A program made the translations under genes and the position numbers. The notes beneath the pieces are model-generated. The model was not told the origin of the DNA, searched no databases, and worked only from the letters and a program-made list of their open reading frames with translations. A stretch of 64,000 nt of DNA from a phage: sequence record PZ386973.1; one strand, written 5' to 3'. Each line of letters starts with the position of its first letter. The first letter of the stretch is position 1. Positions 34,014 to 45,544 of this stretch are shown in pieces.

Positions 34014-34088
34014 CGGGGTGTAGTCTAAGGGAGAGGCAGGAGTCTTCTAAATTCCTTTATGCAGGTTCGAATCCTGTCACCTCGGCCA
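34014..34088 (+). tRNA. tRNA-Arg (anticodon TCT), read by eye
   Basis: Acceptor CGGGGTG/CACCTCG, T-arm GCAGG-TTCGAAT-CCTGT, anticodon loop CTTCTAA, encoded CCA. Confidence 0.55.
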
Positions 34089-34122
34089 ATTTTATTAACT
34101 GTAACTAAAACAAAGGAAATAT

Positions 34123-35070
34123 ATGTTTGCTACTAAAAATATGAAAGAACTGACTTCTGAGCAGAAAGTAATTCGTACTATTAAACGTTGGGGTATTGGT
34201 GCTGTAGTTGGTTTAGCAGGTTTAATCCTAGCTTTTAATTCATATACTATTGTTTCTGATGGTACGGTTAAAACCCAAACATTCCTGGGTAAAGTAGACC
34301 CTAATCCAGTATTGCCAGGTTTCCATCTTGTAAACCCGTTTGCATCTTTCGATACTTTTAGTACAAAAGATATTGCTGTAAAATTAGATAAACTTCAGGT
34401 TCCTAGTCAGGATAAGTTTAAATCCACTGTTGACCTGACTGTTATGTTGCAGTTTGATGGTTCTAAGGCACCTATTAACCGTATTAATGCGGGTACTCAG
34501 GATCAGGCACTAGACAAGTATGTAACTGAAAAATTACTATCTACTATTCGTGAGTTTGGTAAGTCTGTACCTAAAGCACAAGATTTGTTTGATGCTAAAA
34601 TTCAGGCTCAATTGCAAACTGCAATTCAACAGGAAGTTGAAGAGTATGCACGCCCATATGGTTACACAGTTAAGCAGGTGTTCCTTCAGGATATTACTTT
34701 GCCACCGGTAATCATGGAACAGGTACAGAATACCAAAGTTCGTGAAGAGCAAGTTAATGCTGCGAAAGCTGAACTGGCTCGTGTTGAACAGGAAGCACAG
34801 CAAAAAGTTAAACAAGCAGAAGCAGATCGTGAAGCTCGCAACAACCAAGCTATTGCTAATGAACGTGACGCAGATGCTAAACTGTACGCAGCTAAGAAAG
34901 AAGCTGAAGCTAACGCCGCATTGCAACGTACCATTACTCCTGAGATGATTCGCTGGAAGCAACTGGAAGTTGAAATGATTCGTGCTCAGAAATACCAAGG
35001 TGGTGTACCACAGACGGTAGTTGGTACTGGTTATGATGGCCAGATGATTATGGATATGCGTAACAAGTAA
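34123..35070 (+). CDS. SPFH/band-7 (prohibitin-like) membrane protein
   Basis: N-terminal transmembrane helix, band-7-like core, C-terminal coiled coil; 315 aa. Confidence 0.6.
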   Translation: MFATKNMKELTSEQKVIRTIKRWGIGAVVGLAGLILAFNSYTIVSDGTVKTQTFLGKVDPNPVLPGFHLVNPFASFDTFSTKDIAVKLDKLQVPSQDKFKSTVDLTVMLQFDGSKAPINRINAGTQDQALDKYVTEKLLSTIREFGKSVPKAQDLFDAKIQAQLQTAIQQEVEEYARPYGYTVKQVFLQDITLPPVIMEQVQNTKVREEQVNAAKAELARVEQEAQQKVKQAEADREARNNQAIANERDADAKLYAAKKEAEANAALQRTITPEMIRWKQLEVEMIRAQKYQGGVPQTVVGTGYDGQMIMDMRNK

Positions 35071-35139
35071 TAGTTACACGTAATCTTCGAACCAAGCCTG
35101 CGTTTCCCTCGAGAGCGCGGGCTTTTCTGTATTTAAGGC

Positions 35140-35186
35140 AAAAGAAAAAGCCCCTTACCTTTCGGCAGGGGCTTTTGTTTTTGGTT
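35140..35186. terminator. bidirectional rho-independent terminator
   Basis: Hairpin AGCCCCT...AGGGGCT flanked by an A-run and a T-run, between convergent genes. Confidence 0.7.
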
Positions 35187-35389
35187 TAGAACCACACTCT
35201 CGGTATACAGCAACCACCCATACGGGAGGCCAATCTTGACTGAAAATCTACTCTAGGGGGCAGGATAAGAGTAGGCTTAAAGGCAAACGGATTGAACGCC
35301 GGTATTTGCGTAAACATTGCTGGAGAGCAACAACGTGCTACAGGCATTGGGCAGCACGAAACAGATTTTCTGCAACACATAATTCCTCC

Positions 35390-35806
35390 TTAGGAGTTAT
35401 TACCGCTATTTTGAGCTTTTGCAATTTGGCTTTGGCAGAAGCTATTAAACTTACCCATAAGTGATACAAGCTGCCTCCCATCCTCTGTCTTTGCGAAGTC
35501 TTCGAAAAGGGCTAGTACTGCCTGTCCTTCCGCAGAAACCTGCGGTTGTTGGGTTTGCTGCTGAACTTGCTGCTGAGGCACCTGTTGCTGCATTTGTTGA
35601 GGCATTTGCGACTGCCCGCTCATTTGCTGCATCATTTGCATAGGACTTACACTTCCAGGGTTTTGCTGGAGTTGTTGCTGCATCTGTTGCGCTTCTGCTA
35701 AACGCTGTTGCAATTGTTGTAAGTAGGGGTTATCCAGACCCGGAATGGGCTGCTGGGAGCCCATACTTTGATTAAGTCCGTTATTTACAAAACCATATTT
35801 ACTCAT
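35390..35806 (-). CDS. hypothetical Gln-rich low-complexity protein
   Basis: 138 aa with long Q/M/P-rich tracts. Confidence 0.4.
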   Translation of the reverse strand: MSKYGFVNNGLNQSMGSQQPIPGLDNPYLQQLQQRLAEAQQMQQQLQQNPGSVSPMQMMQQMSGQSQMPQQMQQQVPQQQVQQQTQQPQVSAEGQAVLALFEDFAKTEDGRQLVSLMGKFNSFCQSQIAKAQNSGNNS

Positions 35807-35827
35807 AATGGGCTCCTCCCCTTAATA

Positions 35828-36814
35828 TTAAGCCGGCAGTTTAGCCTGCAGACCAGCCAGAGTCTGAGTGATCGCACCAAGACTTACAGCGATTTGATTA
35901 ATTACCTGACCATTAGCACCGTTACCCGCAGCGATTGCCTCACGTAGGCGACATGCATCTAACTCATCCTGAATACGCGCAGTAGTTACACCAGCGATCG
36001 CAGTCTGAAGTTCACAGCAACATTCAGAGATCTGACGTTCCAGAGAATTCTGGTTAGCACACATCTGAGCCTGAACAGCGGCAAACTGGTTATTAGTTTG
36101 TAAAGTCTGCTGGAAAGCGATCTGTGCAGAATCAAACTTATCTTGTGCACGAGCTATCTGGTTAGCTGCGAAAGATTGATCAATCTGGCGAGAAAGATCG
36201 AACTGACCCTGAATAACGTTGCGAGTTTCCTGGCAGATCTGATTAGACAGATTAGCACCTGTACCATAGATCGTAGTTAGTACAGACTGAGTATCACGGC
36301 TCTGGTTTTGGGATGTCTGGCTAAAACCATTGTTAACTGCGCTTAAAACAGCTCCAGTACCCTGGTTAGCTTCTGTACGAGTAGTGTTAATAGCTGCTAG
36401 AATACTAGCGGTATCTTGGTTCTGAAGTACTGCATCAACTGCGGTACCATCACCAACTACACCACGTCCACCGAATCCACCGAAACCACCGAATCCGCCT
36501 GTTAATAGAGCACCGATTAGGATAGCTCCGAATAGTCCCATACCTTCACCACCGAAAGCACCTGCGTTTGCTGGGTAACCACCCAGTAGGCCAGGGAGGC
36601 CACTAGTAAATACGTTTACTGGTTCTTGCATTTTATGTTTTCCATATTTATGACAATGTTCATCATCGTCATCTTCTTCATCATCGTGTTCACGATGCTT
36701 TTCTTCGTAGGCTCTGACCTTCTCCCACTTTTTCTTATCTGATTCCTCGTGACGGTGCAGTTCTGCTGCAACGCTAGCGACGGTCTCAGGACTCTTAGCT
36801 ACTTCTTCTGTCAT
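35828..36814 (-). CDS. hypothetical Gly-rich protein
   Basis: Start moved to the ATG with an AGGAGG ribosome-binding site (MTEEVAKS); acidic His-rich N-terminus, GGFGGFGGFGG tract, Q/N-rich C-terminal half. Confidence 0.45.
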   Translation of the reverse strand: MTEEVAKSPETVASVAAELHRHEESDKKKWEKVRAYEEKHREHDDEEDDDDEHCHKYGKHKMQEPVNVFTSGLPGLLGGYPANAGAFGGEGMGLFGAILIGALLTGGFGGFGGFGGRGVVGDGTAVDAVLQNQDTASILAAINTTRTEANQGTGAVLSAVNNGFSQTSQNQSRDTQSVLTTIYGTGANLSNQICQETRNVIQGQFDLSRQIDQSFAANQIARAQDKFDSAQIAFQQTLQTNNQFAAVQAQMCANQNSLERQISECCCELQTAIAGVTTARIQDELDACRLREAIAAGNGANGQVINQIAVSLGAITQTLAGLQAKLPA

Positions 36815-37021
36815 TTTTTGACACCTCCTAGTATATAGAAAATGTGTGTCTCTTTGATCACTCATCCATAACATATACTTTACACTACCCCAGCGAAAAT
36901 GTCAAGGGGTCTTTAAAAATTGCCCCCGGATTTTTAGTGGGGTCACAAATTTTGGTCCTCACCACTTATATGCTACCCTTAAGTGCCCTATGATTTTCCT
37001 CTAAAAAGTTAAAAAATTTGA

Positions 37022-37050
37022 TTGCTTGAATGCTAAATTCTCTGTATAAT
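37022..37050 (+). promoter_or_regulatory. sigma70-type promoter
   Basis: TTGCTT-17 nt-TATAAT. Confidence 0.5.
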
Positions 37051-37080
37051 GTATCTATAAATTTGAGAGAGGAACCAAAT

Positions 37081-37599
37081 ATGAATGTTGACGAGCTAAC
37101 ACAGCACCTCTTATCTAGAGGATTTGATACAGATAAATATCATTGCTGGTTAAGTCCGGAAGGATGGCTAACAGTCCCGTTGTATGATTTCTCTGGGATG
37201 TTGAGGGGCTATCAGACGTATAATCCTTCTGCTCCAAAAGGTCATGGTAAGTGCCCCTTTGAGGCTAAATATTTTACCTGCTCTACTACACAGTGTGTAT
37301 GGGGGCTAGAAACTCTCAATGGAGATGAAAAAGTAGTATTGATCGCTGAATCTGTATTTAAGGCAGTTGCGTTACACAACGCTGGTTATCCAGCCCTGGC
37401 AATGTTGGGTTCTTCTCCAGGAAAAGCGTTATTAAAGCAACTGAAATTATTACCTTTTAAATTGGTAGCTGTCGGAGATAATGATCCTGCGGGTGAAAAA
37501 TTTGCTAGAAAATTAAACGGCTTTGTTTCTCCCGTAGATGTGGATGAGATGTCTACCGAAAACTTGAAAAATTTTCTTGCTATGAAGCTAAATTTCTAA
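37081..37599 (+). CDS. Toprim-domain protein
   Basis: Toprim E (LIAES) and DxD (GDNDPAGE); start at the ATG behind a GAGAGAGG ribosome-binding site. Confidence 0.5.
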   Translation: MNVDELTQHLLSRGFDTDKYHCWLSPEGWLTVPLYDFSGMLRGYQTYNPSAPKGHGKCPFEAKYFTCSTTQCVWGLETLNGDEKVVLIAESVFKAVALHNAGYPALAMLGSSPGKALLKQLKLLPFKLVAVGDNDPAGEKFARKLNGFVSPVDVDEMSTENLKNFLAMKLNF

Positions 37600-37620
37600 T
37601 ATAATATATCTTATAAATTC

Positions 37621-37714
37621 GGAAGATTAACCCTAAAGGTAAGGGAGCTGTTTGCTAAACAGCCAGTAACTGTGGAAACATGGTGTGCCAGTTCGAGTCT
37701 GGCATCTTCCTCCA
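37621..37714 (+). tRNA. tRNA-Ser (anticodon GCT), long variable arm
   Basis: Perfect acceptor GGAAGAT/ATCTTCC, T-arm TGCCA-GTTCGAGTC-TGGCA, anticodon loop TTGCTAA, encoded CCA. Confidence 0.65.
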
Positions 37715-37720
37715 GATTTT

Positions 37721-37798
37721 GGTTCTCAAGCTCATATGGTATGAGCACCCGGCTCATAACCGGAAGGTACGTAGGTTCGAATCCTCGGGGAGCCACCA
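37721..37798 (+). tRNA. tRNA with CAT anticodon (Met or Ile), read by eye
   Basis: Acceptor GGTTCTC/GGGAGCC, D-arm GCTC...GAGC, anticodon loop CTCATAA; T-stem weak. Confidence 0.45.
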
Positions 37799-37818
37799 AC
37801 TTAATTAGGGGATTACAA

Positions 37819-38007
37819 GTGGAATTATACATAGTTTATGTTGTGTTTATTCAAGATAGAGAATACCCGGATGAATATAAAAAAGGATATAGGTTAGCCA
37901 GAGCTACCTCTGAGGCCCAAGCTATGGATAAAGTGGCAGATTATATGATTATGGTAGAAAACGTATACTATATCGACTCCCTTGAAGCCTCAAAAGTAAT
38001 TGACTAA
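37819..38007 (+). CDS. hypothetical small protein
   Basis: GTG start after an AGGGGA ribosome-binding site; the track ORF 37672-38007 overlaps two tRNAs. Confidence 0.35.
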   Translation: MELYIVYVVFIQDREYPDEYKKGYRLARATSEAQAMDKVADYMIMVENVYYIDSLEASKVID

Positions 38008-38016
38008 GGAGACTAT

Positions 38017-38202
38017 ATGTCTAAGTTTCAAGAACTCAAGCAAGAGCTAGAAGAATGTGCCTGCCCTGAATGTAGGGGGATTGGTGAAAGTTCTGATGCA
38101 GAAGCAGGAGATACTTTTTGCAATATCTGGATTTGTTCAAATTGCAACGGTACAGGTATTAATCCTAACTGCGGTATTTCCCTAGATATTGAACGAGGAT
38201 AA
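38017..38202 (+). CDS. small zinc-ribbon-like protein
   Basis: 61 aa with CxxC pairs (CACPEC...CSNCNG). Confidence 0.4.
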   Translation: MSKFQELKQELEECACPECRGIGESSDAEAGDTFCNIWICSNCNGTGINPNCGISLDIERG

Positions 38203-38304
38203 TACCTGTGAAACTAAAAGATTATTATATTGGTTGGTTTGTGGGACTAGTAGTAGGATTTTCACTAGGCTATAATATGTATCAACTAATAAACTGATTA
38301 CATG

Positions 38305-38381
38305 GGGGGTGTAATCGAATTGGCATAGGTACTGGACTTAAAATTCAGGTTTTGTGGGTTCGAATCCCACCACCCCTACCA
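38305..38381 (+). tRNA. tRNA, anticodon read as TAA, short variable arm
   Basis: Acceptor GGGGGTG/CACCCCT, T-arm GTGGG-TTCGAAT-CCCAC, anticodon stem CTGGA/TTCAG, encoded CCA; identity needs software. Confidence 0.5.
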
Positions 38382-38556
38382 AATTAAGGAATTAAGATGT
38401 ATAGACCTCCTCCGCCACCAACACGTCGTTCTAGGGAAGTCATCCTTATGGAATTGACGAAAAACTTCAAGGCGACTCTTGAGGATAGAGACTTAGGCAC
38501 AGATGAAGACGTTGATTTCATTTGTAAACTATTAAAAATGAAACTGGAGAAACAAC

Positions 38557-38763
38557 ATGGCTAATCCTGAAATTACCATGCAACGACTCATGACTAAAGG
38601 CATGATAGCCGAGGCAGGTATTGAACAAGAAGTAAAAGGCTATTACGAACAGATTAAGACTATTATAGACTCTGCTAAAAACACCGGAGAAAAAGAACAC
38701 GGTGCAGCAATTATGGCTATAACTCTTATTAGTCTAGACTTGGCCGAAGAATCTGGAGTTTAG
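38557..38763 (+). CDS. hypothetical small protein
   Basis: 68-aa ORF with a GGAGA ribosome-binding site. Confidence 0.35.
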   Translation: MANPEITMQRLMTKGMIAEAGIEQEVKGYYEQIKTIIDSAKNTGEKEHGAAIMAITLISLDLAEESGV

Positions 38764-38793
38764 CTCCTCCAAACAGAATTTTTAAAAATGTAC

Positions 38794-38823
38794 TTGCTTT
38801 TTGTCTTAAATTTCTGATATAAT
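38794..38823 (+). promoter_or_regulatory. sigma70-type promoter
   Basis: TTGCTT-18 nt-TATAAT. Confidence 0.45.
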
Positions 38824-38853
38824 AGTCATATAAATTGATGAAGGAGTTAACTA

Positions 38854-39129
38854 ATGCAAAATCGTGTTGTAGCAACTGGTATTGAAAGTGCAATCTGTAA
38901 ATCCTGGGAAGGCTGGGAAGGTGAGATTGAATGGCTTTATTTCTACGATGTAGAACTCCTGCCGGAAGTTAAAGCTAAATGCGTTGAAGCTGGTATGGCT
39001 CCAGATGCAAAAGCTGATATTGATATTTCAATGTCTGAACTTAAAGGTCGTGTAGTTACCGTTAGTAATGAGGGGGAAGAAGTTTTTGAACTTCCGTTCT
39101 CCTTAGCTGTCACTCCTAAGTTCGACTAA
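38854..39129 (+). CDS. hypothetical protein
   Basis: 91-aa ORF with an AAGGAG ribosome-binding site. Confidence 0.45.
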   Translation: MQNRVVATGIESAICKSWEGWEGEIEWLYFYDVELLPEVKAKCVEAGMAPDAKADIDISMSELKGRVVTVSNEGEEVFELPFSLAVTPKFD

Positions 39130-39257: not shown

Positions 39258-39345
39258 GGGCGTTTATTCCGTAAGTGGTAGCGGAGGGGATTGTAAATCC
39301 CTGGTCATTGCGACTCGAGTGGTTCGACTCCATTAACGCCCACCA
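39258..39345 (+). tRNA. tRNA-Tyr (anticodon GTA), long variable arm
   Basis: Acceptor GGGCGTT/AACGCCC, anticodon stem-loop GGGGA-TTGTAAA-TCCCT, encoded CCA. Confidence 0.65.
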
Positions 39346-39353
39346 AATTTAAT

Positions 39354-39428
39354 GCACCTATCGTCTAATGGCTAGGACATCAGGATTTCAATCTGAGAAT
39401 CGGAGTTCAATTCTCCGTGGGTGTACCA
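39354..39428 (+). tRNA. tRNA-Glu (anticodon TTC)
   Basis: Acceptor GCACCTA/TGGGTGT, anticodon stem-loop TCAGG-ATTTCAA-TCTGA, T-arm CGGAG-TTCAATT-CTCCG. Confidence 0.55.
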
Positions 39429-39435: not shown

Positions 39436-39513
39436 CATTCCTAGAGTGTTACTGGACAGCATGTCGGTCTCCAAAACCGTACGGTCTAGGTTCGAGTCCT
39501 AGTGGGTTTGCCA
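39436..39513 (+). tRNA. tRNA-like element with Trp-type anticodon arm (CCA); acceptor stem not resolved
   Basis: Anticodon arm TCGGT-CTCCAAA-ACCGT and T-arm CTAGG-TTCGAGT-CCTAG present; 5' acceptor pairing not found by eye. Confidence 0.35.
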
Positions 39514-39519: not shown

Positions 39520-39594
39520 GCACCTTTAGCTGAGATGGATTAGCGCTTGCCTGAAGAGCTTGAGAGGTTCGTTCGATTCGAACAGGGTGCACCA
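39520..39594 (+). tRNA. tRNA-Phe (anticodon GAA), read by eye
   Basis: Acceptor GCACCTT/AGGGTGC, T-arm GTTCG-TTCGATT-CGAAC, anticodon loop CTGAAGA; anticodon stem has two mismatches. Confidence 0.5.
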
Positions 39595-39953: not shown

Positions 39954-40029
39954 CGACCGTTGGCTGAATGGCTTAGGCGAAGGATTGCAAATCCTTTTTA
40001 TGTGAGTTCAAATCTCATGCGGTCGTCCA
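39954..40029 (+). tRNA. tRNA-Cys (anticodon GCA)
   Basis: Acceptor CGACCGT/GCGGTCG, anticodon stem-loop AAGGA-TTGCAAA-TCCTT, T-arm GTGAG-TTCAAAT-CTCAT. Confidence 0.65.
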
Positions 40030-40181: not shown

Positions 40182-40264
40182 GGGTCGTTAGCCAAGCGGT
40201 TTGGCGGTGGACTGTTAATCCATGTCGAAAGACAACGTAGGTTCGAATCCTACACGGCCCGCCA
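40182..40264 (+). tRNA. tRNA with long variable arm; anticodon read as GTT, identity uncertain
   Basis: Acceptor GGGTCGT/ACGGCCC, T-arm GTAGG-TTCGAAT-CCTAC, variable stem-loop GTC-GAAA-GAC. Confidence 0.5.
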
Positions 40265-40366
40265 AATTCTGTGTAGAGTTAAGTAAACCGGTAGCCAACC
40301 AGCTATCATTGCTGACATCGAATTCAGCCACAGATACCATTTTCATTAATAACTGAGGAAACAAGC

Positions 40367-40561: not shown

Positions 40562-40638
40562 GCGACCGGGGCTGGCTTGGTAATGGTACTCCCCTGTCAC
40601 GGGAGAGAATGTGGGTTCAAATCCCATCGGTCGCGCCA
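40562..40638 (+). tRNA. tRNA-Asp (anticodon GTC)
   Basis: Perfect acceptor GCGACCG/CGGTCGC, anticodon stem-loop CTCCC-CTGTCAC-GGGAG. Confidence 0.7.
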
Positions 40639-40655: not shown

Positions 40656-40808
40656 ATGGAACGTAGGGAGTTTACTCCAGAAGAGATAGAGCAGATAAAA
40701 GAATCTGCTATGAAAAATGCTAGAATATCTCTGTCACTGGAAGGTATCATTATTAGTGACGTAAACTTTGAAAAAATCAAAGCCATAGCTGATGAACTGG
40801 AAAAAGTA
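40656..40808 (+). CDS. hypothetical 50-aa protein with S-x3-E-G motif
   Basis: ATG behind an AAGGTAGG ribosome-binding site; sequence RISLSLEG fits the [S/T]xxxE[G/N] motif of FicA/VbhA-type Fic inhibitors. Confidence 0.3.
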
Positions 40809-40814
40809 ATTTAA

Positions 40815-40890
40815 TACATCCATAGCTCAATGGTTAGAGCTACCGCCTCTTAAGCGGAGGGTTCTAGGTTCAAGTCCTAGTGGGTGTACC
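40815..40890 (+). tRNA. tRNA-Lys (anticodon CTT), read by eye
   Basis: Acceptor ACATCCA/TGGGTGT, D-arm GCTCAATGGTTAGAGC, anticodon loop CTCTTAA, T-arm CTAGG-TTCAAGT-CCTAG. Confidence 0.55.
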
Positions 40891-40917
40891 AAATTAAACT
40901 AGCACGAGAAATATGCT

Positions 40918-41265
40918 ATGATTAATGCTAAAGAAGAGTTGTTACTTGCCCTAAAGAATACTAAGTCTGAAGTTAAGTGTATTAAGATAGAATTCGGTTA
41001 TTATGGGGATAAAGAAGTTTGGGTATTACCCGTAGGTTATACAGAAAAAGATATTGAAGATTTTCTAGATAATCTAGACTTTAAATATGATTCTGGTTTC
41101 GGCGGACAACTGCTTTATGGTAACGTATGGTTTACTGATGGAACTTGGTTAGAACGTGGTGAATATGATGGTTCTGAATGGTGGGAATATAAGACTACAC
41201 CAGCAATCCCAGAAGAATGCCGAACAATTAATGGTGAAGTAGATCGTACTTTACTATTAAATTAA
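40918..41265 (+). CDS. hypothetical protein
   Basis: 115-aa ORF. Confidence 0.45.
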   Translation: MINAKEELLLALKNTKSEVKCIKIEFGYYGDKEVWVLPVGYTEKDIEDFLDNLDFKYDSGFGGQLLYGNVWFTDGTWLERGEYDGSEWWEYKTTPAIPEECRTINGEVDRTLLLN

Positions 41266-41657
41266 CAAAATTTCAGTGCAGAACACGGAGCTAGCAATTC
41301 GGAAGTGCTGACTCATGATAAGCTGCCTATGTACTTGCGAAGCGGTCGTGTCCAAGACTCGGACTCTTGCACTGAAAACAATCAAACATTCTAGCGTGGT
41401 TGATGGGGAAACCAGCTTGGCTAGGGCAGAAGCTCGTTCGATTCGAGTGGAAGAATGGTTCTCGTAAGTCCGCACAAGTGATAACAGGTTCGAGTCCTGT
41501 CTAGAATGACACTATAAAGTTTACTTATTGAGTAGGTTCCGATAGATCGGCGGGTCTATTCTGGCATTTAAGAGAGGTCTCGCAAACTTCTTTGTCAGCC
41601 GTGGGGTTCATAGCCTCCAGGTGGCCTACACAATAAGTAAATTTATTAAAAATTCAT

Positions 41658-41686
41658 TTGCTATTCTGCTTAATTATCTGTATAAT
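41658..41686 (+). promoter_or_regulatory. sigma70-type promoter
   Basis: TTGCTA-17 nt-TATAAT. Confidence 0.5.
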
Positions 41687-41718
41687 ATATTTTATAAAGT
41701 GAAGAGAAGGAAAGCAAA

Positions 41719-41877
41719 ATGAAACACAAGATAGCTCAAGTTTTTATGGCATTATGGTGTATGCCAATAGCTATAACAGCATTTAATCTAGATACTCTTA
41801 CTATAGAAGAAAAATGTATCGGATTAGTTAGCGGCTTTAGTATGCTGGGCTTATCTTTGCTGTGGTTAAAGAAATAA
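41719..41877 (+). CDS. hypothetical small membrane peptide
   Basis: 52-codon ORF with a GGAAAG ribosome-binding site; two hydrophobic segments. Confidence 0.3.
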   Translation: MKHKIAQVFMALWCMPIAITAFNLDTLTIEEKCIGLVSGFSMLGLSLLWLKK

Positions 41878-41881
41878 TATT

Positions 41882-41959
41882 CTCCGTGTAGCTCAGTTTG
41901 GCCAGAGCGTTTCGTTTGGGGCGATAGGGTCGGGGGTTCAAATCCTCCCACGGAGACCA
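41882..41959 (+). tRNA. tRNA-Pro (anticodon TGG)
   Basis: Perfect acceptor CTCCGTG/CACGGAG, D-arm GCTCAGTTTGGCCAGAGC, anticodon loop TTTGGGG. Confidence 0.6.
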
Positions 41960-41965
41960 AACAAT

Positions 41966-42043
41966 TGCGGGTTAGATCTCTGGTAGAGATCGCTAGTCTC
42001 ATAAGCTAGAAAGAGGTAGGTTCGATTCCTGCACCCGCTTCCA
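41966..42043 (+). tRNA. tRNA with CAT anticodon (Met or Ile); 1-72 mismatch
   Basis: Acceptor TGCGGGT/ACCCGCT with T-T at 1-72, anticodon stem-loop CTAGT-CTCATAA-GCTAG, T-arm GTAGG-TTCGATT-CCTGC. Confidence 0.5.
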
Positions 42044-42063
42044 TTTTAATAGAGGATTTCGAA

Positions 42064-42231
42064 ATGAAAGTATTTCGATTAGTAGTAAGTGATAAACGTT
42101 TAGGTAAGAATACATCAAAATCCTTACTCGCTCATTACGGTAAAAATTGGGATGAAGTAATGGTAGAGTTTAGTACTAATCACCCTTACCTGAAAGTTCA
42201 CTCTATTAAAGAAGTATACAATGGTTACTAA
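42064..42231 (+). CDS. hypothetical small protein
   Basis: 55-codon ORF with an AGAGGA ribosome-binding site between two tRNAs. Confidence 0.3.
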   Translation: MKVFRLVVSDKRLGKNTSKSLLAHYGKNWDEVMVEFSTNHPYLKVHSIKEVYNGY

Positions 42232-42232
42232 T

Positions 42233-42311
42233 AGATCGCTAGCTCAATAGGTTTAGTAGCATCCGACTTTTAATCGGAAGGTTCTGGGTTCAAGTCCCAG
42301 GCGATCTACCA
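42233..42311 (+). tRNA. tRNA-Lys (anticodon TTT)
   Basis: Perfect acceptor AGATCGC/GCGATCT, anticodon stem-loop TCCGA-CTTTTAA-TCGGA, T-arm CTGGG-TTCAAGT-CCCAG. Confidence 0.7.
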
Positions 42312-42329
42312 ATTTCAAGAAAAACGCAG

Positions 42330-42358
42330 TTGCTTGATGCTTAATTTCTTGTTATAAT
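42330..42358 (+). promoter_or_regulatory. sigma70-type promoter
   Basis: TTGCTT-17 nt-TATAAT. Confidence 0.5.
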
Positions 42359-42596
42359 ATTTATATAAATTGATGAGGATTTCTCCTCATCATAGTTCAC
42401 TAAGGTATTAGCTCGACCTAGGACTGGCTGCCAAAAAGCACGATCCCTACGATTCGGGAGAAGTTCTAGATTAGTCCACTAGATTCAGCGGCAACTGAAT
42501 AGTGTATCGGGTTTGCGAGATGACGTAGTTCCTTCCGCTCGAAGCGAAGGTGCTGTAGTTACGCCGAGCTAATAGCCTTAGTAAATTAAAGAATTT

Positions 42597-42675
42597 GGGG
42601 GATGGGTCTGCTAGGAGTGGACACCTCGCTTGCACCGAGGACATCAGAACGATTCGAATTCGTTATCCTCCACCA
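42597..42675 (+). tRNA. tRNA-Ala (anticodon TGC)
   Basis: Acceptor GGGGGAT/ATCCTCC, anticodon stem-loop CCTCG-CTTGCAC-CGAGG, T-arm AACGA-TTCGAAT-TCGTT. Confidence 0.6.
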
Positions 42676-42680
42676 AATAC

Positions 42681-42757
42681 GCGTGATTGATGGAATGGGC
42701 ATACATACCGTCCTTAGAAGTCGGGTTTTGAGGGTTCGAATCCCTTGTCACGCACCA
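42681..42757 (+). tRNA. tRNA, anticodon read as TAG, short variable arm
   Basis: Acceptor GCGTGAT/GTCACGC, T-arm GAGGG-TTCGAAT-CCCTT; identity needs software. Confidence 0.5.
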
Positions 42758-42869
42758 AATTTGATGGTCAGAGTAAATTAAACCTACTATCTCGGTTGAG
42801 CTGTTTTAATGGGTTCGAATCCCAGCGAGGCGTAACTGCCTGGCGTGATAGAGGCATCATCTTATTATT

Positions 42870-42960
42870 GGAAGAGCAAATCGAATTGGCGACGAAAACC
42901 GCTTGGAAAGTGGCTGACTGGTAAAACGGCTTGAGAGTTCAAATCTCTTCTCTTCCGCCA
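42870..42960 (+). tRNA. tRNA-Ser (anticodon GGA), long variable arm
   Basis: Perfect acceptor GGAAGAG/CTCTTCC, anticodon loop TTGGAAA, T-arm GAGAG-TTCAAAT-CTCTT. Confidence 0.55.
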
Positions 42961-42972
42961 AACAATTTATAT

Positions 42973-43067
42973 GGTAGGTCAATCCAAAGGCTGGCGCTGG
43001 ACTCCGACTTGAAATCGGTTGATCGTAGTGATACGGTGTAAGGGTTCGATCCCCTTACCTACCTCCA
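42973..43067 (+). tRNA. tRNA-Ser (anticodon TGA), long variable arm
   Basis: Perfect acceptor GGTAGGT/ACCTACC, anticodon loop CTTGAAA, T-arm AAGGG-TTCGATC-CCCTT. Confidence 0.55.
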
Positions 43068-43432
43068 AATCTTGGAATATGCCGGAATTAGTAGACGGGA
43101 CTGCCGAATAGGTTTACTAGGAACATCCACTCCTAGAAATATACCTTAAAGGCGGTTGAGATAAATGGTCTATCTCGTGAAGGTTCAAGTCCTTCTATTC
43201 CTTGATACATCAATGGCTCAAAGTGTAACGGTGCTATTTGATGCTCTTGGAAAGACTTTCCCGACAGGCGTTCGGGGGTAAGCTTCTGAGGCTAGAATAG
43301 AAGAGTTTCTGAGAGCCGCCACAATTGAAAATTCGTACTCGTCTTGAGCTGCGTGCAATAGGAGATAACTTGATTAGTATTCTAGAACATGCTAATTGAG
43401 GATGGTTTCGCTAACCCTGCGAGTTTTCAATT

Positions 43433-43509
43433 GTGGCTATATCATAATTGGTTAATGATCCTGATTGTGAATCAGGCCTATGTGGATTCGAATTCCACTA
43501 GCCACCCCA
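43433..43509 (+). tRNA. tRNA-His (anticodon GTG)
   Basis: Perfect acceptor GTGGCTA/TAGCCAC, anticodon stem-loop CCTGA-TTGTGAA-TCAGG, T-arm GTGGA-TTCGAAT-TCCAC. Confidence 0.7.
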
Positions 43510-43534
43510 AATTAACTTAAATAGGAAATAAAAT

Positions 43535-43732
43535 ATGGCTGATTTCTGCAAACAATGCTCTATTGATATGTGGGGCAGAGATACTGGTGATCTTTCTGGT
43601 TTGATTACAGAAGCCGAAGTTAAAGAAGGTTATGGTGCAGTTGTGATTTGCGAAGGATGCGGAGTTATTCGAGTGGATCATGAAGGCAAACGTTTAGAAG
43701 AGCAGGAAAATTTAGGAGAAACAAATGAGTAA
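43535..43732 (+). CDS. small zinc-ribbon-like protein
   Basis: 65 aa with CKQC...CEGCG pairs. Confidence 0.4.
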   Translation: MADFCKQCSIDMWGRDTGDLSGLITEAEVKEGYGAVVICEGCGVIRVDHEGKRLEEQENLGETNE

Positions 43733-43961
43733 TGCCTTAATTAGTGAAATTATGTTAACACGTCTTGCAGAATTACAAACTCTTCGAGATGAATCTCAGA
43801 ATAACTTAGCCTACCATAAACAGATGGTAGATACTCTTACTACTCGTATTGAAACTTACGAGCGCGATATTGCAGCATTACAAGCCCTTTTCTCTGTGTC
43901 AGCACCCGATACGTTAGAACAGCCTCCTGTGTCTCAGCCGGTAGAAACAGCATCTAGTTAA
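43725..43961 (+). CDS. hypothetical small coiled-coil protein
   Basis: 78-aa ORF overlapping the previous stop. Confidence 0.35.
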   Translation: MSNALISEIMLTRLAELQTLRDESQNNLAYHKQMVDTLTTRIETYERDIAALQALFSVSAPDTLEQPPVSQPVETASS

Positions 43962-43970
43962 TAGCATTCT

Positions 43971-44046
43971 TGGAGTGTAGATCAATTGGCAGATCGTCGG
44001 CCTCTGACTCCGAAGGTTCCTGGTTCGATCCCAGGCACTCCAGCCA
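43971..44046 (+). tRNA. tRNA-Gln (anticodon CTG)
   Basis: Perfect acceptor TGGAGTG/CACTCCA, anticodon loop CTCTGAC, T-arm CCTGG-TTCGATC-CCAGG. Confidence 0.6.
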
Positions 44047-44052
44047 AACAAT

Positions 44053-44128
44053 TGGAGAGTAGTGTAACGGTTAGCACAACGGCCTTTGACTCCGTTAATG
44101 GTAGGTTCGATTCCTCCTTCTCCAGCCA
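44053..44128 (+). tRNA. tRNA-Gln (anticodon TTG)
   Basis: Acceptor TGGAGAG/TTCTCCA, anticodon loop CTTTGAC, T-loop TTCGATT. Confidence 0.55.
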
Positions 44129-44136
44129 AATAATAG

Positions 44137-44212
44137 GCGGTTAAGCACACGGGTTGTGTCGCAGGCCTTCCAAGCCTCGCTGAGTAGGGTTCGATTCCCT
44201 CTAGCCGCTCCA
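44137..44212 (+). tRNA. tRNA-Gly (anticodon TCC)
   Basis: Acceptor GCGGTTA/TAGCCGC, anticodon loop CTTCCAA, T-arm TAGGG-TTCGATT-CCCTC. Confidence 0.55.
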
Positions 44213-44228
44213 ACTTTAAGGAAACGTT

Positions 44229-44480
44229 ATGCACGTTTTTGAGTTTCGTAATAAAAGTACCGATAAACGAGTTATTGTTATTGGAGAAACATACCGAGCA
44301 TACGAACAAACTGACGGCTCTGTTATCCTGAATGATGAGAAAGGAGGTTTTAGCTTTTATCCAGAAGAACCTTATGAAGAGTTTCGAAAACAATTTAACC
44401 TAGACTGGAGAAAGCATTTAAACACTGTTGCTTCATCTGTAGTATTGCCAACTACCAGTACTGTACCCCCTAATGGCTGA
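44229..44480 (+). CDS. hypothetical protein
   Basis: 83-aa ORF with an AAGGAAACG ribosome-binding site. Confidence 0.4.
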   Translation: MHVFEFRNKSTDKRVIVIGETYRAYEQTDGSVILNDEKGGFSFYPEEPYEEFRKQFNLDWRKHLNTVASSVVLPTTSTVPPNG

Positions 44481-44637
44481 CAACCTAAAAGTAAAGATCG
44501 ATAAACAAAAGAAACGTGTAGAAGTAGAGATTGGTGAAGAACGTGTAGCCTTCACCTTTGAATTTCTTCAGCAGTTGGCAATGACAGTTATGACTGATAA
44601 GTCTCCTGTTATTGAAAAAGAAATCCCGTTGAAATAA
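44473..44637 (+). CDS. hypothetical small protein
   Basis: 54-codon ORF overlapping the previous stop (ATGGCTGA). Confidence 0.3.
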   Translation: MADNLKVKIDKQKKRVEVEIGEERVAFTFEFLQQLAMTVMTDKSPVIEKEIPLK

Positions 44638-44645
44638 CGGGTTTT

Positions 44646-44720
44646 GCTCCTAAAGCATTGCTGGCGATGCAGTTGCCTTGTAAGCATCTGAACCGGGTTC
44701 GATTCCTGGTGGGAGCACCA
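44646..44720 (+). tRNA. tRNA-Thr (anticodon TGT)
   Basis: Acceptor GCTCCTA/TGGGAGC, D-arm GCAT...ATGC, anticodon loop CTTGTAA, T-arm CCGGG-TTCGATT-CCTGG. Confidence 0.6.
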
Positions 44721-44735
44721 AATTTAAAAATTCAT

Positions 44736-44764
44736 TTGCCTTCTCTCTTATTTATTGTTATAAT
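44736..44764 (+). promoter_or_regulatory. sigma70-type promoter
   Basis: TTGCCT-17 nt-TATAAT. Confidence 0.5.
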
Positions 44765-44794
44765 ATTTATATAAATTAATGAGAGGGAAACCAA

Positions 44795-45088
44795 ATGAAA
44801 CGTTATCTTTCTGTATTATTCCAAGCTGGTGGTCAACGCTATACTTACGAATTTCCTAGCTCTTGGAAAATAAAAGAAGGTGATCAAGTAGTAGTGTTAA
44901 CACCACGTGAAGGGTATAAAGTAGTAACGGTTAAACAAGTATTTCCAAAAGATCATGAACCGGCTAAAGGCATTCGCTATAAGATGATTCATGGTGTGGT
45001 TCGTCAAGTACCACGAGCGGAAGTAGAAATCAGAGTAGATAAAGATGGTAAACTTAAGTATACTTCTTGCTTAGATGAGTTACTATAA
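44795..45088 (+). CDS. hypothetical protein
   Basis: 97-aa ORF. Confidence 0.45.
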   Translation: MKRYLSVLFQAGGQRYTYEFPSSWKIKEGDQVVVLTPREGYKVVTVKQVFPKDHEPAKGIRYKMIHGVVRQVPRAEVEIRVDKDGKLKYTSCLDELL

Positions 45089-45294
45089 TGAGGATTACTT
45101 TCACAGAAAAGATCATGAGTAATGGTGTTATGATCATTACCGCATGGGATGGTAATCAGTGGTGTAGTGTTTCAGGTATTAAGCCCGAAGAACAAACACT
45201 AGAAAATATCTCAAAGATTAAGCGAAGAATGGCAGAACGTGCACGACTTCCAGGTGCGCCTAGAAATGGTAAACGTTCTGCAATTAAATGTTAA
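45088..45294 (+). CDS. hypothetical small protein
   Basis: 68-aa ORF, coupled start (TAATG). Confidence 0.35.
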   Translation: MRITFTEKIMSNGVMIITAWDGNQWCSVSGIKPEEQTLENISKIKRRMAERARLPGAPRNGKRSAIKC

Positions 45295-45295
45295 T

Positions 45296-45372
45296 GCTTC
45301 GGTAGCTTAGCGATCTAAAGCACTCGGCTGATAACCGAGAGATCGGGGGTTTAAATCCCTCCCGGAGTACCA
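45296..45372 (+). tRNA. tRNA-Ile (anticodon GAT)
   Basis: Acceptor GCTTCGG/CCGGAGT, anticodon stem-loop CTCGG-CTGATAA-CCGAG. Confidence 0.6.
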
Positions 45373-45468
45373 AATTTAGGAATTAAGACTATGCGTCCAG
45401 GAAAGTTTAAAAAAGCTAATTGGTCTAAAGAGTATAAAGAATACTTACTTAGTCTAATAAAACATAAT

Positions 45469-45544
45469 AGTTAGTTGGCAGAGTGGTTATGCACCTCCTT
45501 CATACGGAGCGACTACAGTGGTTCAAATCCACTACTAACTACCA
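45469..45544 (+). tRNA. tRNA with CAT anticodon (Met or Ile)
   Basis: Perfect acceptor AGTTAGT/ACTAACT, T-arm AGTGG-TTCAAAT-CCACT, anticodon loop TTCATAC. Confidence 0.55.

What the first reader, a model, noticed from the sequence alone, without database searches (positions are those of the whole stretch)
34014..45544. About 27 tRNA candidates with several non-canonical features
By eye the cluster covers Arg, Ser (three), Tyr, Glu, Phe, Cys, Asp, Lys (two), Pro, Ala, His, Gln (two), Gly, Thr, Ile and three CAT-anticodon tRNAs. Oddities include short-variable-arm tRNAs whose anticodons read TAA and TAG (normally long-arm Leu), a long-arm tRNA reading GTT, U-U mismatches in stems, and one element (39436-39513) with a Trp-type anticodon arm but no pairable acceptor stem.
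Basis: seen in the sequence. Interest (0 to 1): 0.45.

Follow-up and report, generated by a model that had tools for sequence, protein, structure and literature searches.

The report
Phage tRNA cluster with odd-shaped tRNAs
This is the well-known tRNA gene cluster of a T5-like phage, but several of its tRNAs have unusual shapes that are real and conserved (leucine tRNAs lacking their long arm, an asparagine tRNA that has gained one, a tryptophan tRNA with fixed mismatches), and these shapes are barely described and may help the phage keep translating when the host attacks tRNAs.

Summary
The window comes from a T5-like phage (Tequintavirus, 96% identical to sequenced relatives). Positions 34014-45544 hold 26 plus-strand tRNA genes, all with an encoded CCA end, covering 19 amino acids (no Val). 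ARAGORN and Rfam confirm every by-eye anticodon call. The third Ser (GGA, 42870-42960) is missed by ARAGORN and is far below threshold in Rfam. The oddities are real and conserved. (1) Leu(UAA) and Leu(UAG) are class I, with a 5-nt variable loop. They keep every E. coli LeuRS identity element, and 19 distinct phage homologues covary almost perfectly. (2) Asn(GUU) carries a 13-nt variable hairpin. This type occurs in 561 phage records from T5-like, T4-like and phAPEC8-like phages, and the hairpin shows compensatory changes. (3) The Trp acceptor stem is pairable at 5 of 7 positions. Its 2·71 and 3·70 mismatches are fixed across Demerecviridae while neighbouring pairs covary. (4) Ten of 20 stem mismatches are U·U, and several are deeply conserved. 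The most likely reading is functional tRNAs charged by host synthetases, part of the T5 tRNA-rich region already shown to counter PARIS and retron-Eco7. That the shape changes themselves help escape tRNA-targeting enzymes is inference. The cluster is known; the structural variants are nearly undescribed.

The parts
33425..33511 (+). tRNA-like element outside the finding. It has acceptor, D and T arms but a 21-nt 'anticodon loop' containing a hairpin, and no CCA. It lies inside the homologue of T5 'RNAX'.
   Evidence: Rfam tRNA 42 bits; sequence. Relatives carry a 73-74 nt version with a different anticodon arm and a covarying T stem. RNAX homology covers 33369-34013.
34014..34088 (+). tRNA-Arg(UCU), 75 nt
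   Evidence: 75/75 identical to T5 tRNA-Arg
37621..37714 (+). tRNA-Ser(GCU), 94 nt, long arm, U73
37721..37798 (+). CAT-1, the homologue of T5 tRNA-Ile2(CAU); irregular T stem
   Evidence: Rfam 40.3 bits; ARAGORN relaxed; 76/78 identical to T5 Ile2 with a compensatory change in the anticodon stem; T5 annotation
38305..38381 (+). tRNA-Leu(UAA), class I: 5-nt variable loop GTTTT, 3-bp D stem with 11-nt Leu-type D loop, A73
   Evidence: family alignment and covariation
39258..39345 (+). tRNA-Tyr(GUA), 88 nt, long arm
39354..39428 (+). tRNA-Glu(UUC)
39437..39513 (+). tRNA-Trp(CCA) with U2·U71, U3·U70, U27·U43 and G8; A1-U72 and G73 are kept
   Evidence: mismatch conservation with flanking covariation
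39520..39594 (+). tRNA-Phe(GAA) with U28·U42 and U29·U41
   Evidence: 74/75 identical to T5 Phe
39954..40029 (+). tRNA-Cys(GCA)
   Evidence: identical to T5
40182..40264 (+). tRNA-Asn(GUU), 83 nt, with a 13-nt variable arm (GTC-GAAA-GAC stem-loop plus AAC), G73, and an anticodon stem-loop like that of E. coli tRNA-Asn
   Evidence: family
40267..40339 (+). homologue of T5 'RNA3', a putative tRNA-like RNA ending in ACCA
   Evidence: 100% identical to T5 RNA3; sequence
40562..40638 (+). tRNA-Asp(GUC)
   Evidence: identical to T5
40816..40891 (+). tRNA-Lys(CUU)
41387..41632 (+). homologues of the T5 stable RNAs RNA2 (tRNA-like, 41387-41511) and RNAIV (41532-41632)
   Evidence: 95-96% identical
41882..41959 (+). 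tRNA-Pro(UGG) with U28·U42
41966..42043 (+). CAT-2, the homologue of the T5 'initiator tRNA fMet': U1·U72 and A11-U24 present, but no GGG/CCC in the anticodon stem
   Evidence: 78/78 identical to T5; T5 annotation
42233..42311 (+). tRNA-Lys(UUU), 79 nt, 11-nt D loop
42406..42577 (+). homologue of T5 stable RNA 'RNA2H'
   Evidence: 97% identical
42597..42675 (+). tRNA-Ala(UGC), 79 nt, G3·U70 present
42681..42757 (+). tRNA-Leu(UAG), class I: 5-nt variable loop, Leu-type D arm, A73, U30·U40
42870..42960 (+). tRNA-Ser(GGA), 91 nt, 2-bp D stem, G73, long arm; not called by ARAGORN and far below threshold in Rfam
   Evidence: 70.5% identical over 95 aligned positions to T5 Ser(GGA); by eye close to TrudiGerster's annotated tRNA-Ser (sequences; identity not computed); Rfam tRNA-Sec 21.3 bits, E=0.11
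42973..43067 (+). tRNA-Ser(UGA), 95 nt, perfect acceptor stem GGTAGGT/ACCTACC, U73
43071..43431 (+). homologues of the T5 stable RNAs RNA1 (tRNA-like), RNAI and RNAIII
   Evidence: 96-100% identical
43433..43509 (+). tRNA-His(GUG)
   Evidence: 77/78 identical to T5
43971..44046 (+). tRNA-Gln(CUG) with C31·U39
44053..44128 (+). tRNA-Gln(UUG) with C31·U39
44137..44212 (+). tRNA-Gly(UCC)
   Evidence: ARAGORN relaxed; Rfam sub-threshold; 76/76 identical to T5 Gly, which is annotated as an effective suppressor after anticodon change
44646..44720 (+). tRNA-Thr(UGU) with U28·U42
   Evidence: the same anticodon arm recurs in many divergent phage Thr tRNAs
45296..45372 (+). tRNA-Ile(GAU)
45469..45544 (+). 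CAT-3, elongator tRNA-Met
   Evidence: identical to T5 tRNA-Met

Best explanation
This is the tRNA-rich region of a T5-like (Tequintavirus) phage. It holds 26 tRNA genes with encoded CCA ends, interspersed with small ORFs and T5-type stable RNAs. By homology with the annotated T5 promoters it is transcribed from early sigma-70-type promoters. The tRNAs would then be processed and aminoacylated by host enzymes (inferred). They supply the phage with a nearly complete tRNA set for 19 amino acids, which keeps translation going when host tRNAs are limiting or are destroyed by tRNA-targeting defences.

The non-canonical tRNAs are functional genes and not decay products. The two Leu tRNAs have lost the long variable arm. 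They can do so because E. coli-type LeuRS does not read that arm, and they retain everything it does read (A73, A14, A15-U48, G18G19, A20a). The Asn tRNA has gained a short class II-like variable hairpin while keeping the AsnRS identity set (GUU anticodon plus G73). The Trp tRNA keeps A1-U72, G73 and CCA but carries two fixed mismatches in the acceptor stem.

Inference, not shown: remodelling of parts that the synthetases ignore is favoured because it makes the phage tRNAs poor substrates for host enzymes that recognise tRNA shape or stem sequence.
For: Identity of the region:
- 624 phage records match it, the best at 96%.
- Gene order matches the annotated T5 cluster, whose notes record suppressor tests.
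- 11 genes are identical or nearly identical to T5 genes.
- TTGCTA-17-TATAAT promoters lie at 33173, 37577 and 41658.

Leu:
- 19 distinct 77-nt class I Leu tRNAs align without gaps. A14, A15, G18, G19, A20a, U48 and A73 are invariant.
- 99.5% of cells are paired, 18 of 20 pairs show compensatory changes, and 0 of 500 shuffles reach this.
- These invariant positions are the E. coli LeuRS determinants, and the long arm is dispensable for that enzyme (review PMC9976931).
- Among the class II isotypes only Leu is bimodal in length. In the loci sampled, apart from three 74-nt ARAGORN 'Ser' calls (anticodon ACT in the two read back) that fall on the CCA-less tRNA-like element, all Ser (85-97 nt) and all Tyr (81-91 nt) keep long arms, matching which synthetases need the arm.
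- A truncation series of 15, 9 and 5 nt occurs in tRNAs that share one anticodon arm.

Asn:
- 14 distinct 82-86 nt versions occur in T5-like, T4-like and phAPEC8-like phages.
- The variable helix is 100% paired, and 2 of its 4 pairs show compensatory changes.
- It is found in 561 phage records and in none of 5,426 E. coli genomes.
- It replaces the T5-type Asn at exactly the same site, 2 nt upstream of RNA3.

Trp: positions 2·71 and 3·70 are unpaired in 5 of 5 distinct sequences, while pairs 4-7 and four T-stem pairs change compensatorily.

Other conserved mismatches: Thr U28·U42, Gln C31·U39 and Pro U28·U42.

Function of the region: T5 tRNA-Lys, Thr and Asn neutralise PARIS/AriB, which cuts between positions 40 and 41 (PMC12409363). 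T5-type tRNA-Tyr rescues phage from retron-Eco7 (PMC11555353).
Against: - No expression, processing or charging data exist for these particular alleles. T5 itself carries a class II Leu and a class I Asn, so the classical T5 experiments do not cover them.
- The adaptive (escape) rationale is untested. Across phage Lys, Thr and Asn tRNAs, having a long arm shows no clean association with keeping the AriB motif UAAUC.
- Loss of the arm in Leu could be neutral.
- The Asn alignment was collected with a pattern that fixes the anticodon arm and the first two bases of the variable arm, so the invariance there is by construction.
- The Phe double U·U mismatch is seen only in near-identical relatives.
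Confidence: 0.8

Rival explanations
1. Neutral drift under relaxed constraint. Phage tRNAs only need to work briefly and at high dosage, so any part that the host synthetases and the ribosome do not read is free to change. On this view the Leu arm loss, the Asn insertion and the tolerated U·U mismatches have no role of their own.
For: - The pattern follows synthetase requirements exactly. Leu loses the arm, whereas Ser and Tyr do not, apart from three 74-nt ARAGORN 'Ser' calls on the tRNA-like element.
- Intermediates with 9-nt arms exist.
- Long arms also turn up sporadically on Thr, Lys and Ile(UAU).
- There is no clean link to the AriB motif.
Against: - Specific mismatches stay fixed while their neighbours covary: Trp 2·71/3·70, Thr 28·42 and Gln 31·39. 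That is a sign of selection on the mismatch itself.
- The long-arm Asn has spread across three unrelated phage families and 561 records, with its hairpin maintained by compensatory changes.
- U·U makes up 10 of 20 mismatches.
Confidence: 0.3
2. The odd elements are pseudogenes, or artefacts of by-eye or software misregistration, sitting among genuine tRNAs.
For: - Trp scores only 34 bits against a gathering score of 29.
- Ser(GGA) is missed by ARAGORN and is sub-threshold in Rfam.
- Some annotations of relatives call several of these genes tRNA-OTHER.
- T5's own Trp, Asn and Ser(GGA) did not become suppressors after anticodon replacement.
Against: - Near-perfect covariation for Leu.
- Compensatory changes in Asn, including the extra arm, and in Trp.
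- Invariant identity nucleotides.
- All genes carry an encoded CCA.
- Conservation extends across subfamilies and families.
- Failure as a suppressor is expected for synthetases that read the anticodon, such as AsnRS and TrpRS.
Confidence: 0.04
3. Recoding or decoy function. The long-arm tRNA(GUU) would be charged by a class II-tRNA synthetase (SerRS, since it has G73 and an extra arm) and insert Ser at Asn codons. Alternatively, the odd tRNAs are not used in translation but act as decoys or inhibitors of tRNA-targeting nucleases.
For: - G73 plus an extra arm, and in the T4-like and phAPEC8-like versions a class II-like 3-bp D stem, resemble tRNA-Ser.
- The AriB study raises the possibility that overexpressed viral tRNAs inhibit AriB by competition.
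Against: - The arm has only a 3-4 bp stem. [quoted passage not shown]
- The complete AsnRS identity set (G34 U35 U36 plus G73) is present.
- The gene occupies the Asn slot, replacing a conventional Asn gene.
Confidence: 0.04

Closest known systems
tRNA gene region of bacteriophage T5 (NC_005859; 'tRNA-rich region' of T5-like phages)
   Same: The gene order is the same, and the interspersed small ORFs, promoters and stable RNAs (RNAX, RNA1-3, RNAI, III, IV, 2H) are present. Eleven tRNA genes are identical or nearly identical. The region is experimentally linked to escape from PARIS and retron-Eco7.
   Different: About half the genes are different alleles. T5 has a class II Leu(UAG) of 85 nt, no Leu(UAA), a conventional 78-nt Asn and a 71-nt Trp. 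The window has two class I Leu genes, a long-arm Asn, a Trp with U·U mismatches, an extra Lys(CUU) and no Val.
Class I (short-arm) tRNA-Leu of animal mitochondria, and engineered minimal E. coli tRNA-Leu lacking the variable arm
   Same: Leucine tRNAs that work without the long arm. Identity rests on A73 and on D/T-loop tertiary elements (PMC9976931).
   Different: These are natural tRNAs meant for a bacterial cytoplasmic LeuRS, and they keep a full-size, class II-type D arm (3-bp stem, 11-nt loop). The review states that Leu carries the long arm everywhere except animal mitochondria.
Short-variable-loop tRNA-Leu(TAG) in mycobacterial tRNA gene clusters (Behra et al. 2019, PMC6582537)
   Same: A Leu(TAG) isoacceptor with a short variable loop, encoded in a horizontally acquired tRNA array that also contains an HNH endonuclease gene.
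   Different: It is mentioned in one sentence, in a different host group. No identity-element or covariation analysis was done, and no link to phages of enterobacteria was made.
T5 tRNA-Lys(UUU), Thr(UGU) and Asn(GUU) variants that resist AriB (PARIS)
   Same: Phage copies of host tRNAs that differ from the host copy at sites a defence nuclease reads.
   Different: Known escape works through base substitutions at positions 39-41. The window's Asn keeps the host-like U36AAUCC41 and differs instead by an inserted variable hairpin. The window's Lys(UUU) keeps U39 and C40 and differs only at position 41.
Nematode 'nev-tRNAs' (class II tRNAs carrying Gly or Ile anticodons; recalled from memory, not checked here)
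   Same: A long variable arm on a tRNA whose anticodon belongs to a class I isotype.
   Different: Nev-tRNAs are charged with Leu. Here the AsnRS identity set is intact and the arm is short. This is a resemblance only.

Membership tests
Canonical tRNA (Rfam RF00005 cloverleaf) | Match to the covariance model at or above the gathering score (29 bits) | tested here: met
   Twenty-one of the 26 genes, plus the tRNA-like element at 33425, score 34-65 bits. Tyr, Ala, Gly, Ser(UGA) and Ser(GGA) do not reach it. Four of these are called by ARAGORN. Ser(GGA) is supported only by homology.
Canonical tRNA (Rfam RF00005 cloverleaf) | 7-bp acceptor stem, 5-bp anticodon stem with 7-nt loop and U33, 5-bp T stem with GTTCRANNC-type loop, 3' CCA | tested here: met
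   All 25 parsed tRNAs fit this frame, with 405 of 425 stem positions paired, and all end in an encoded CCA. The exceptions are listed individually (Trp, Phe, Ile2 and others).
Bacterial class II tRNA-Leu | Long variable arm (more than 10 nt, with a stem) | tested here: not met
   The variable loop is 5 nt (GTTTT) in both Leu genes. The same is true of 19 distinct homologues.
Bacterial class II tRNA-Leu | E. coli LeuRS identity set: A73, A14, A15-U48 Levitt pair, G18G19 placement, A20a | tested here: met
   All are invariant in alignment A1. The set is as listed in PMC9976931.
Bacterial class II tRNA-Leu | Aminoacylation with leucine by the host LeuRS | not testable with these tools
   Needs in vitro charging or tRNA-seq of charged species.
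tRNA-Asn (substrate of E. coli AsnRS) | Anticodon G34 U35 U36 and discriminator G73 | tested here: met
   identity set from PMC9976931.
tRNA-Asn (substrate of E. coli AsnRS) | Class I architecture (4-5 nt variable loop) | tested here: not met
   The variable region is 13 nt, with a 3-bp stem and a GAAA loop. The helix is supported by covariation.
tRNA-Trp (substrate of E. coli TrpRS) | Anticodon CCA and G73; A1-U72 is treated as an identity pair from my own knowledge, since the review text read here lists it only as a feature of E. coli tRNA-Trp that repels MetRS | tested here: met
tRNA-Trp (substrate of E. coli TrpRS) | Fully paired acceptor stem | tested here: not met
   U2·U71 and U3·U70 are unpaired in 5 of 5 distinct Demerecviridae sequences.
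Bacterial initiator tRNA-fMet (CAT-2, 41966-42043) | 1·72 mismatch | tested here: met
   U1·U72. Homologues show U·U, C·U or U·C, and one shows U-A.
Bacterial initiator tRNA-fMet (CAT-2, 41966-42043) | Three consecutive G-C pairs at the bottom of the anticodon stem (feature recalled from my own knowledge) | tested here: not met
   The anticodon stem is CTAGT/GCTAG. T5 nevertheless annotates the identical gene as the initiator.
T5-like (Demerecviridae) tRNA-rich region | Synteny and sequence identity with T5 and Tequintavirus tRNA regions, including the T5 stable RNAs | tested here: met
Nuclease-resistant phage tRNA variants (PARIS/AriB escape) | Substitutions at or next to the AriB site U36AAUC|N41 | tested here: inconclusive
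   Thr has G39, like T5. Lys(UUU) differs only at position 41. Asn keeps the host motif UAAUCC. Resistance itself cannot be tested here.

The most novel reading that the evidence does not exclude
Remodelling of the variable arm is a general phage counter-defence. On this reading, phages delete the long arm from tRNA-Leu, and add a small arm to tRNAs such as Asn(GUU), Thr(UGU) and Lys(UUU), so that host enzymes which recognise tRNAs by shape can no longer dock. Such enzymes would include nucleases that cut the anticodon stem next to the arm, like AriB, or arm-reading enzymes analogous to the mammalian Schlafens, which target type II tRNAs. Host synthetases, which ignore these parts, would still charge the tRNAs. 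The fixed acceptor-stem mismatches of tRNA-Trp would be the same trick directed at an acceptor-reading toxin.
Probability: 0.2. Interest if true: 0.75.

Novelty: new variant of a known kind. Interest (0 to 1): 0.45.

Why it matters
The cluster itself is ordinary for a T5-like phage. Three things in it still matter.

1. **Class I leucine tRNAs.** They are common in phage and mobile tRNA arrays. That contradicts the textbook statement that Leu keeps its long arm everywhere except animal mitochondria. It is also a natural confirmation of what LeuRS identity experiments predicted.

2. **The long-arm tRNA-Asn.** A class II-like tRNA-Asn has spread across three unrelated phage families and more than 500 genomes. 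I found no published description or explanation of it.

3. **Fixed mismatches.** Specific mismatches, such as those in the Trp acceptor stem and the Thr anticodon stem, are held fixed by selection.

Phage tRNAs have just been shown to defeat PARIS, retron-Eco7 and PrrC. These shape variants are therefore ready-made natural mutants for finding out what tRNA-targeting defence enzymes recognise. They are also candidate scaffolds for orthogonal or nuclease-resistant tRNAs. A practical point: ARAGORN misses one gene entirely and Rfam scores it far below threshold, and annotation pipelines label others tRNA-OTHER, tRNA-Xle or tRNA-Cys.

Tried and rejected
1. **An extended Trp acceptor helix.** In the window the 5' leader GC can pair with G73 and C74, giving a 9-bp helix. 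The leader is not conserved in relatives (ctgc, acaat or attct), so I dropped the idea.

2. **A long arm as an alternative to mutating the AriB motif.** Within T5-like phages, the long-arm Asn and Thr keep UAAUC while the short-arm alleles are mutated. Across all phage tRNAs sampled, however, three of five long-arm Thr lack the motif and many short-arm tRNAs keep it. There is no clean association.

3. **Using Bas34 as a natural test.** Bas34 has its own Asn yet needs the T5 Asn to escape PARIS. I tried to find which Asn allele it carries. IrisVonRoten turned out to be Bas32 and SuperGirl Bas29. The record NC_105120 is not in the collection, and no supplements are held.

4. **Literature on class I Leu or long-arm Asn in phages.** Searches found no treatment beyond one sentence on a mycobacterial tRNA cluster. 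Genome papers on T5-like phages only count tRNAs.

5. **ARAGORN's relaxed-threshold call for Ser(TGA).** It has three acceptor mismatches and is a 4-nt misregistration. I rejected it in favour of 42973-43067.

6. **T5's own Trp.** It is a different and more aberrant 71-nt gene, not the orthologue of the window's Trp.

Full report
**What the region is.** The window is part of a T5-like phage genome. The stretch 34000-45600 matches 624 phage records. The best are Salmonella and Escherichia Tequintavirus genomes at 94-96% identity over 93-98% of its length. Gene order is the same as in the annotated tRNA region of T5 (NC_005859). That record also carries experimental notes on which tRNAs become amber suppressors when the anticodon is replaced. 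G+C is about 40%. Three perfect TTGCTA-17-TATAAT promoter-like sites lie on the + strand at 33173, 37577 and 41658. This matches the T5-type early promoter consensus reported for AKFV33.

**Checking the observation.**
- ARAGORN finds 22 tRNAs at default settings and 25 at a relaxed threshold.
- Rfam finds 22 at gathering score.
- Sub-threshold Rfam matches cover Tyr, Ser(UGA) and Gly.
- Homology to T5 revealed one more gene, Ser(GGA) at 42870-42960. ARAGORN does not call it, and Rfam scores it only 21.3 bits.

The range therefore holds 26 tRNA genes. All are on the + strand, all end in an encoded CCA, and together they cover 19 amino acids. Val is missing, although relatives have Val(UAC) after Lys(UUU). 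T5's annotation names the CAT genes Ile2(CAU), initiator fMet and elongator Met.

Two corrections are needed. The Trp element does have an acceptor stem, paired at 5 of 7 positions. And ARAGORN's relaxed-threshold call for Ser(UGA) is 4 nt out of register.

**Relation to T5.**
- Eleven genes are identical or nearly identical to T5 genes: Arg, Ile2, Phe, Cys, Asp, fMet, His, Gly, Thr, Ile1 and Met.
- The rest are different alleles or extra genes: both Leu, Asn, Trp, Tyr, Glu, Pro, Lys(UUU), Ala, two Ser, two Gln and Lys(CUU).
- T5's own Leu(UAG) is an 85-nt class II tRNA, its Asn is a conventional 78-nt tRNA, and its Trp is a distinct 71-nt gene.

The classical T5 work therefore never examined the odd alleles seen here. 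The Asn alleles replace each other precisely. In both phages the gene ends 2 nt before the 100% conserved RNA3.

**Short-arm leucine tRNAs.** Both Leu genes are 77 nt. Each has a 5-nt variable loop (GTTTT), a 3-bp D stem, an 11-nt D loop (GAATTGGCATA or GAATGGGCATA) and A73.

Nineteen distinct 77-nt homologues were collected. They come from other Demerecviridae (Pectobacterium phages DU_PP_V and My1, Vibrio phage JSF10) and from many unrelated viral metagenome contigs. They align without a single gap. A14, A15, G18, G19, A20a, U48 and A73 are invariant. On the class I cloverleaf, 99.5% of cells are paired and 18 of 20 pairs show changes on both sides. None of 500 shuffles and none of the slid controls comes close.

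The invariant positions are exactly the E. coli LeuRS determinants. According to the identity review, neither the anticodon nor the long arm is needed by that enzyme (PMC9976931).

In the loci I sampled, 54 of 127 ARAGORN Leu calls are 78 nt or shorter. Apart from three 74-nt ARAGORN 'Ser' calls on the CCA-less tRNA-like element described below (anticodon ACT in the two read back), every Ser (85-97 nt) and every Tyr (81-91 nt) keeps a long arm. So only the isotype whose synthetase ignores the arm has lost it.

Intermediates exist. Klebsiella phage K7_rec23 has an 87-nt Leu(UAG) with a 15-nt arm. TrudiGerster and phagemcphageface have an almost identical tRNA with a 9-nt arm. DU_PP_V has a 77-nt tRNA with the same anticodon arm and a 5-nt loop.

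The Leu(UAA) allele occurs in 388 phage records and in none of 5,426 complete E. coli genomes.

I scanned bacterial and archaeal genomes for one D-loop motif. Of 123 matches, ARAGORN recognised a Leu tRNA at 31. Twenty-seven were ordinary class II Leu and four were class I Leu. Three of the four sit in arrays of 10-16 tRNA genes on metagenome-assembled-genome (MAG) contigs. The fourth lies on a 635-nt stretch with no context.

The review says Leu has the long arm everywhere except animal mitochondria. The only published remark I found is one sentence on a short-loop Leu(TAG) in a mycobacterial tRNA cluster (PMC6582537).

**Long-arm asparagine tRNA.** The GUU tRNA is 83 nt. It has a normal acceptor stem, a 4-bp D stem and a normal T arm, with G73. 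Its anticodon stem-loop is that of E. coli tRNA-Asn apart from one compensated pair. Its variable region is 13 nt: GTC-GAAA-GAC-AAC.

Fourteen distinct versions of 82-86 nt were found. They occur in T5-like phages, in a T4-like Bragavirus, in phAPEC8 and in viral contigs of 100-175 kb. The extra helix is paired in every sequence. Two of its four pairs show compensatory changes (C-G/U-A/U·G and C-G/A-U/U·G).

One caveat applies. The search pattern fixed the anticodon arm and the first two arm bases, so invariance there means nothing.

BLAST finds this tRNA in 561 phage records, including Klebsiella, Enterobacter and Serratia T4-like phages. One record annotates it as tRNA-Cys. E. coli genomes have none. 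AsnRS identity is the anticodon plus G73, and both are present.

**Tryptophan tRNA and other mismatches.** Five distinct Demerecviridae Trp sequences all have A1-U72. All have a non-pair at 2·71 (U·U) and at 3·70 (U·U, or C·U in My1), and a non-pair at 27·43. Meanwhile pairs 4-7 and four T-stem pairs change compensatorily. An unrelated viral contig (L034) has a Trp with U2·U71 and C3·C70. G73 and the CCA anticodon are kept.

In the acceptor, anticodon and T stems of the 25 tRNAs tabulated (Ser(GGA) was not included), 20 of 425 positions are non-pairs, and 10 of those are U·U. Several are old:
- The Thr arm GUUGC-CUUGUAA-GCAUC, with U28·U42, recurs in at least ten divergent phage Thr tRNAs whose acceptor stems differ.
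- Both Gln tRNAs keep C31·U39 across lineages with different stems.
- Pro keeps U28·U42 while the next pair covaries.

The double U·U mismatch in Phe is seen only in near-identical relatives. It is the T5 tRNA-Phe, which is already known to behave unusually with PheRS.

**How it most likely works.**
- Shown by others for T5-type regions: the tRNA-rich region is what lets T5-like phages escape retron-Eco7 (through tRNA-Tyr) and PARIS. T5 tRNA-Lys(UUU), Thr(UGU) and Asn(GUU) replace the host tRNAs that AriB cuts between positions 40 and 41.
- Shown here: the odd tRNAs are under purifying selection for a tRNA fold and for the identity nucleotides of the cognate synthetase.
- Inferred: they are charged by the host LeuRS, AsnRS and TrpRS and used in translation.
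- More speculative: the remodelled parts are selected because they spoil recognition by host tRNA-targeting enzymes.

The window's Thr has G39, like T5's resistant Thr. Its Lys(UUU) differs from the host site only at position 41. Its Asn keeps the host site UAAUCC, so if it resists AriB the hairpin beside the cut strand would have to be the reason. I could not support this statistically.

There is a mammalian precedent for nucleases that select type II tRNAs. SLFN11 targets type II tRNAs, and SLFN12 targets tRNA-Leu(UAA). This is only an analogy.

**Rivals.**
- Neutral drift explains why Leu alone loses its arm. It does not explain mismatches that stay fixed while their neighbours covary, nor the spread of the Asn hairpin across phage families.
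- Pseudogenes or misregistration are excluded by the covariation.
- Recoding (Ser on the GUU tRNA) is unlikely, because the arm is short and the Asn identity set is complete.

**Verdict.** As a locus this is the known T5-type tRNA region. The structural variants in it are real, widespread, nearly undescribed and experimentally tractable. Interest is moderate.

Noticed in passing
window 33425-33511 (inside 33369-34013): A tRNA-like element about 500 nt upstream of tRNA-Arg. It has good acceptor, D and T arms but no CCA, and its 'anticodon loop' is 21 nt and contains a 6-bp hairpin (GGAGAT/ATCTCC). T5, TrudiGerster, phagemcphageface, DU_PP_V and My1 have a 73-74 nt version at the same place. In those the T stem covaries, the anticodon arm is different and degenerate, and there is again no CCA. 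It lies within the homologue of T5 'RNAX', annotated as a stable RNA of unknown function.
   Followed up: partly
window 40267-40339, 41387-41632, 42406-42577, 43071-43431: All the other T5 'stable RNAs with unknown functions' (RNA3, RNA2, RNAIV, RNA2H, RNA1, RNAI, RNAIII) are present at 95-100% identity between the tRNA genes. RNA3 is 73 nt, ends in ACCA, and has a 6-bp acceptor-like stem with U1·U72. Neither ARAGORN nor Rfam calls it.
   Followed up: partly
L022 and L101 (T5-like IMG/VR contigs); L059; L015, L026, L030, L032, L037, L039, L051, L074, L075, L130 and genome contig L227: Other phage tRNAs with class II-like long variable arms on class I isotypes: Thr(UGU) of 87 nt in T5-like phages, Lys(UUU) of 88 nt, and a recurrent Ile(UAU) of 91-95 nt in ten viral contigs and one MAG tRNA array. 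Plasticity of the variable arm seems to be general in phage tRNA sets.
   Followed up: partly
L034 (IMGVR_UViG_3300031519_004379): A tRNA-Trp from an unrelated viral contig also has non-pairs at exactly 2·71 (U·U) and 3·70 (C·C), with the rest of the acceptor stem paired. This may be convergence with the Demerecviridae Trp.
   Followed up: no
window 42312-42405: The Val(UAC) gene that follows Lys(UUU) in T5, TUMS_E3 and TrudiGerster is absent here. No BLAST match to T5 Val was found anywhere in the window.
   Followed up: partly
L201 (Lachnospiraceae MAG contig), L227 (Aquiluna MAG contig), L234: Dense arrays of 10-16 tRNA genes within a few kb on contigs binned as bacterial genomes. They contain class I Leu tRNAs. 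L201 has four Leu genes in a row, three of them 74-77 nt long. They look like phage-derived or mobile tRNA arrays.
   Followed up: no
L009 12654-13074 (Vibrio phage 70E37.6): A GOLLD ncRNA is annotated next to the tRNA cluster of this Vibrio Demerecviridae phage. No GOLLD match was reported by Rfam in the window.
   Followed up: no
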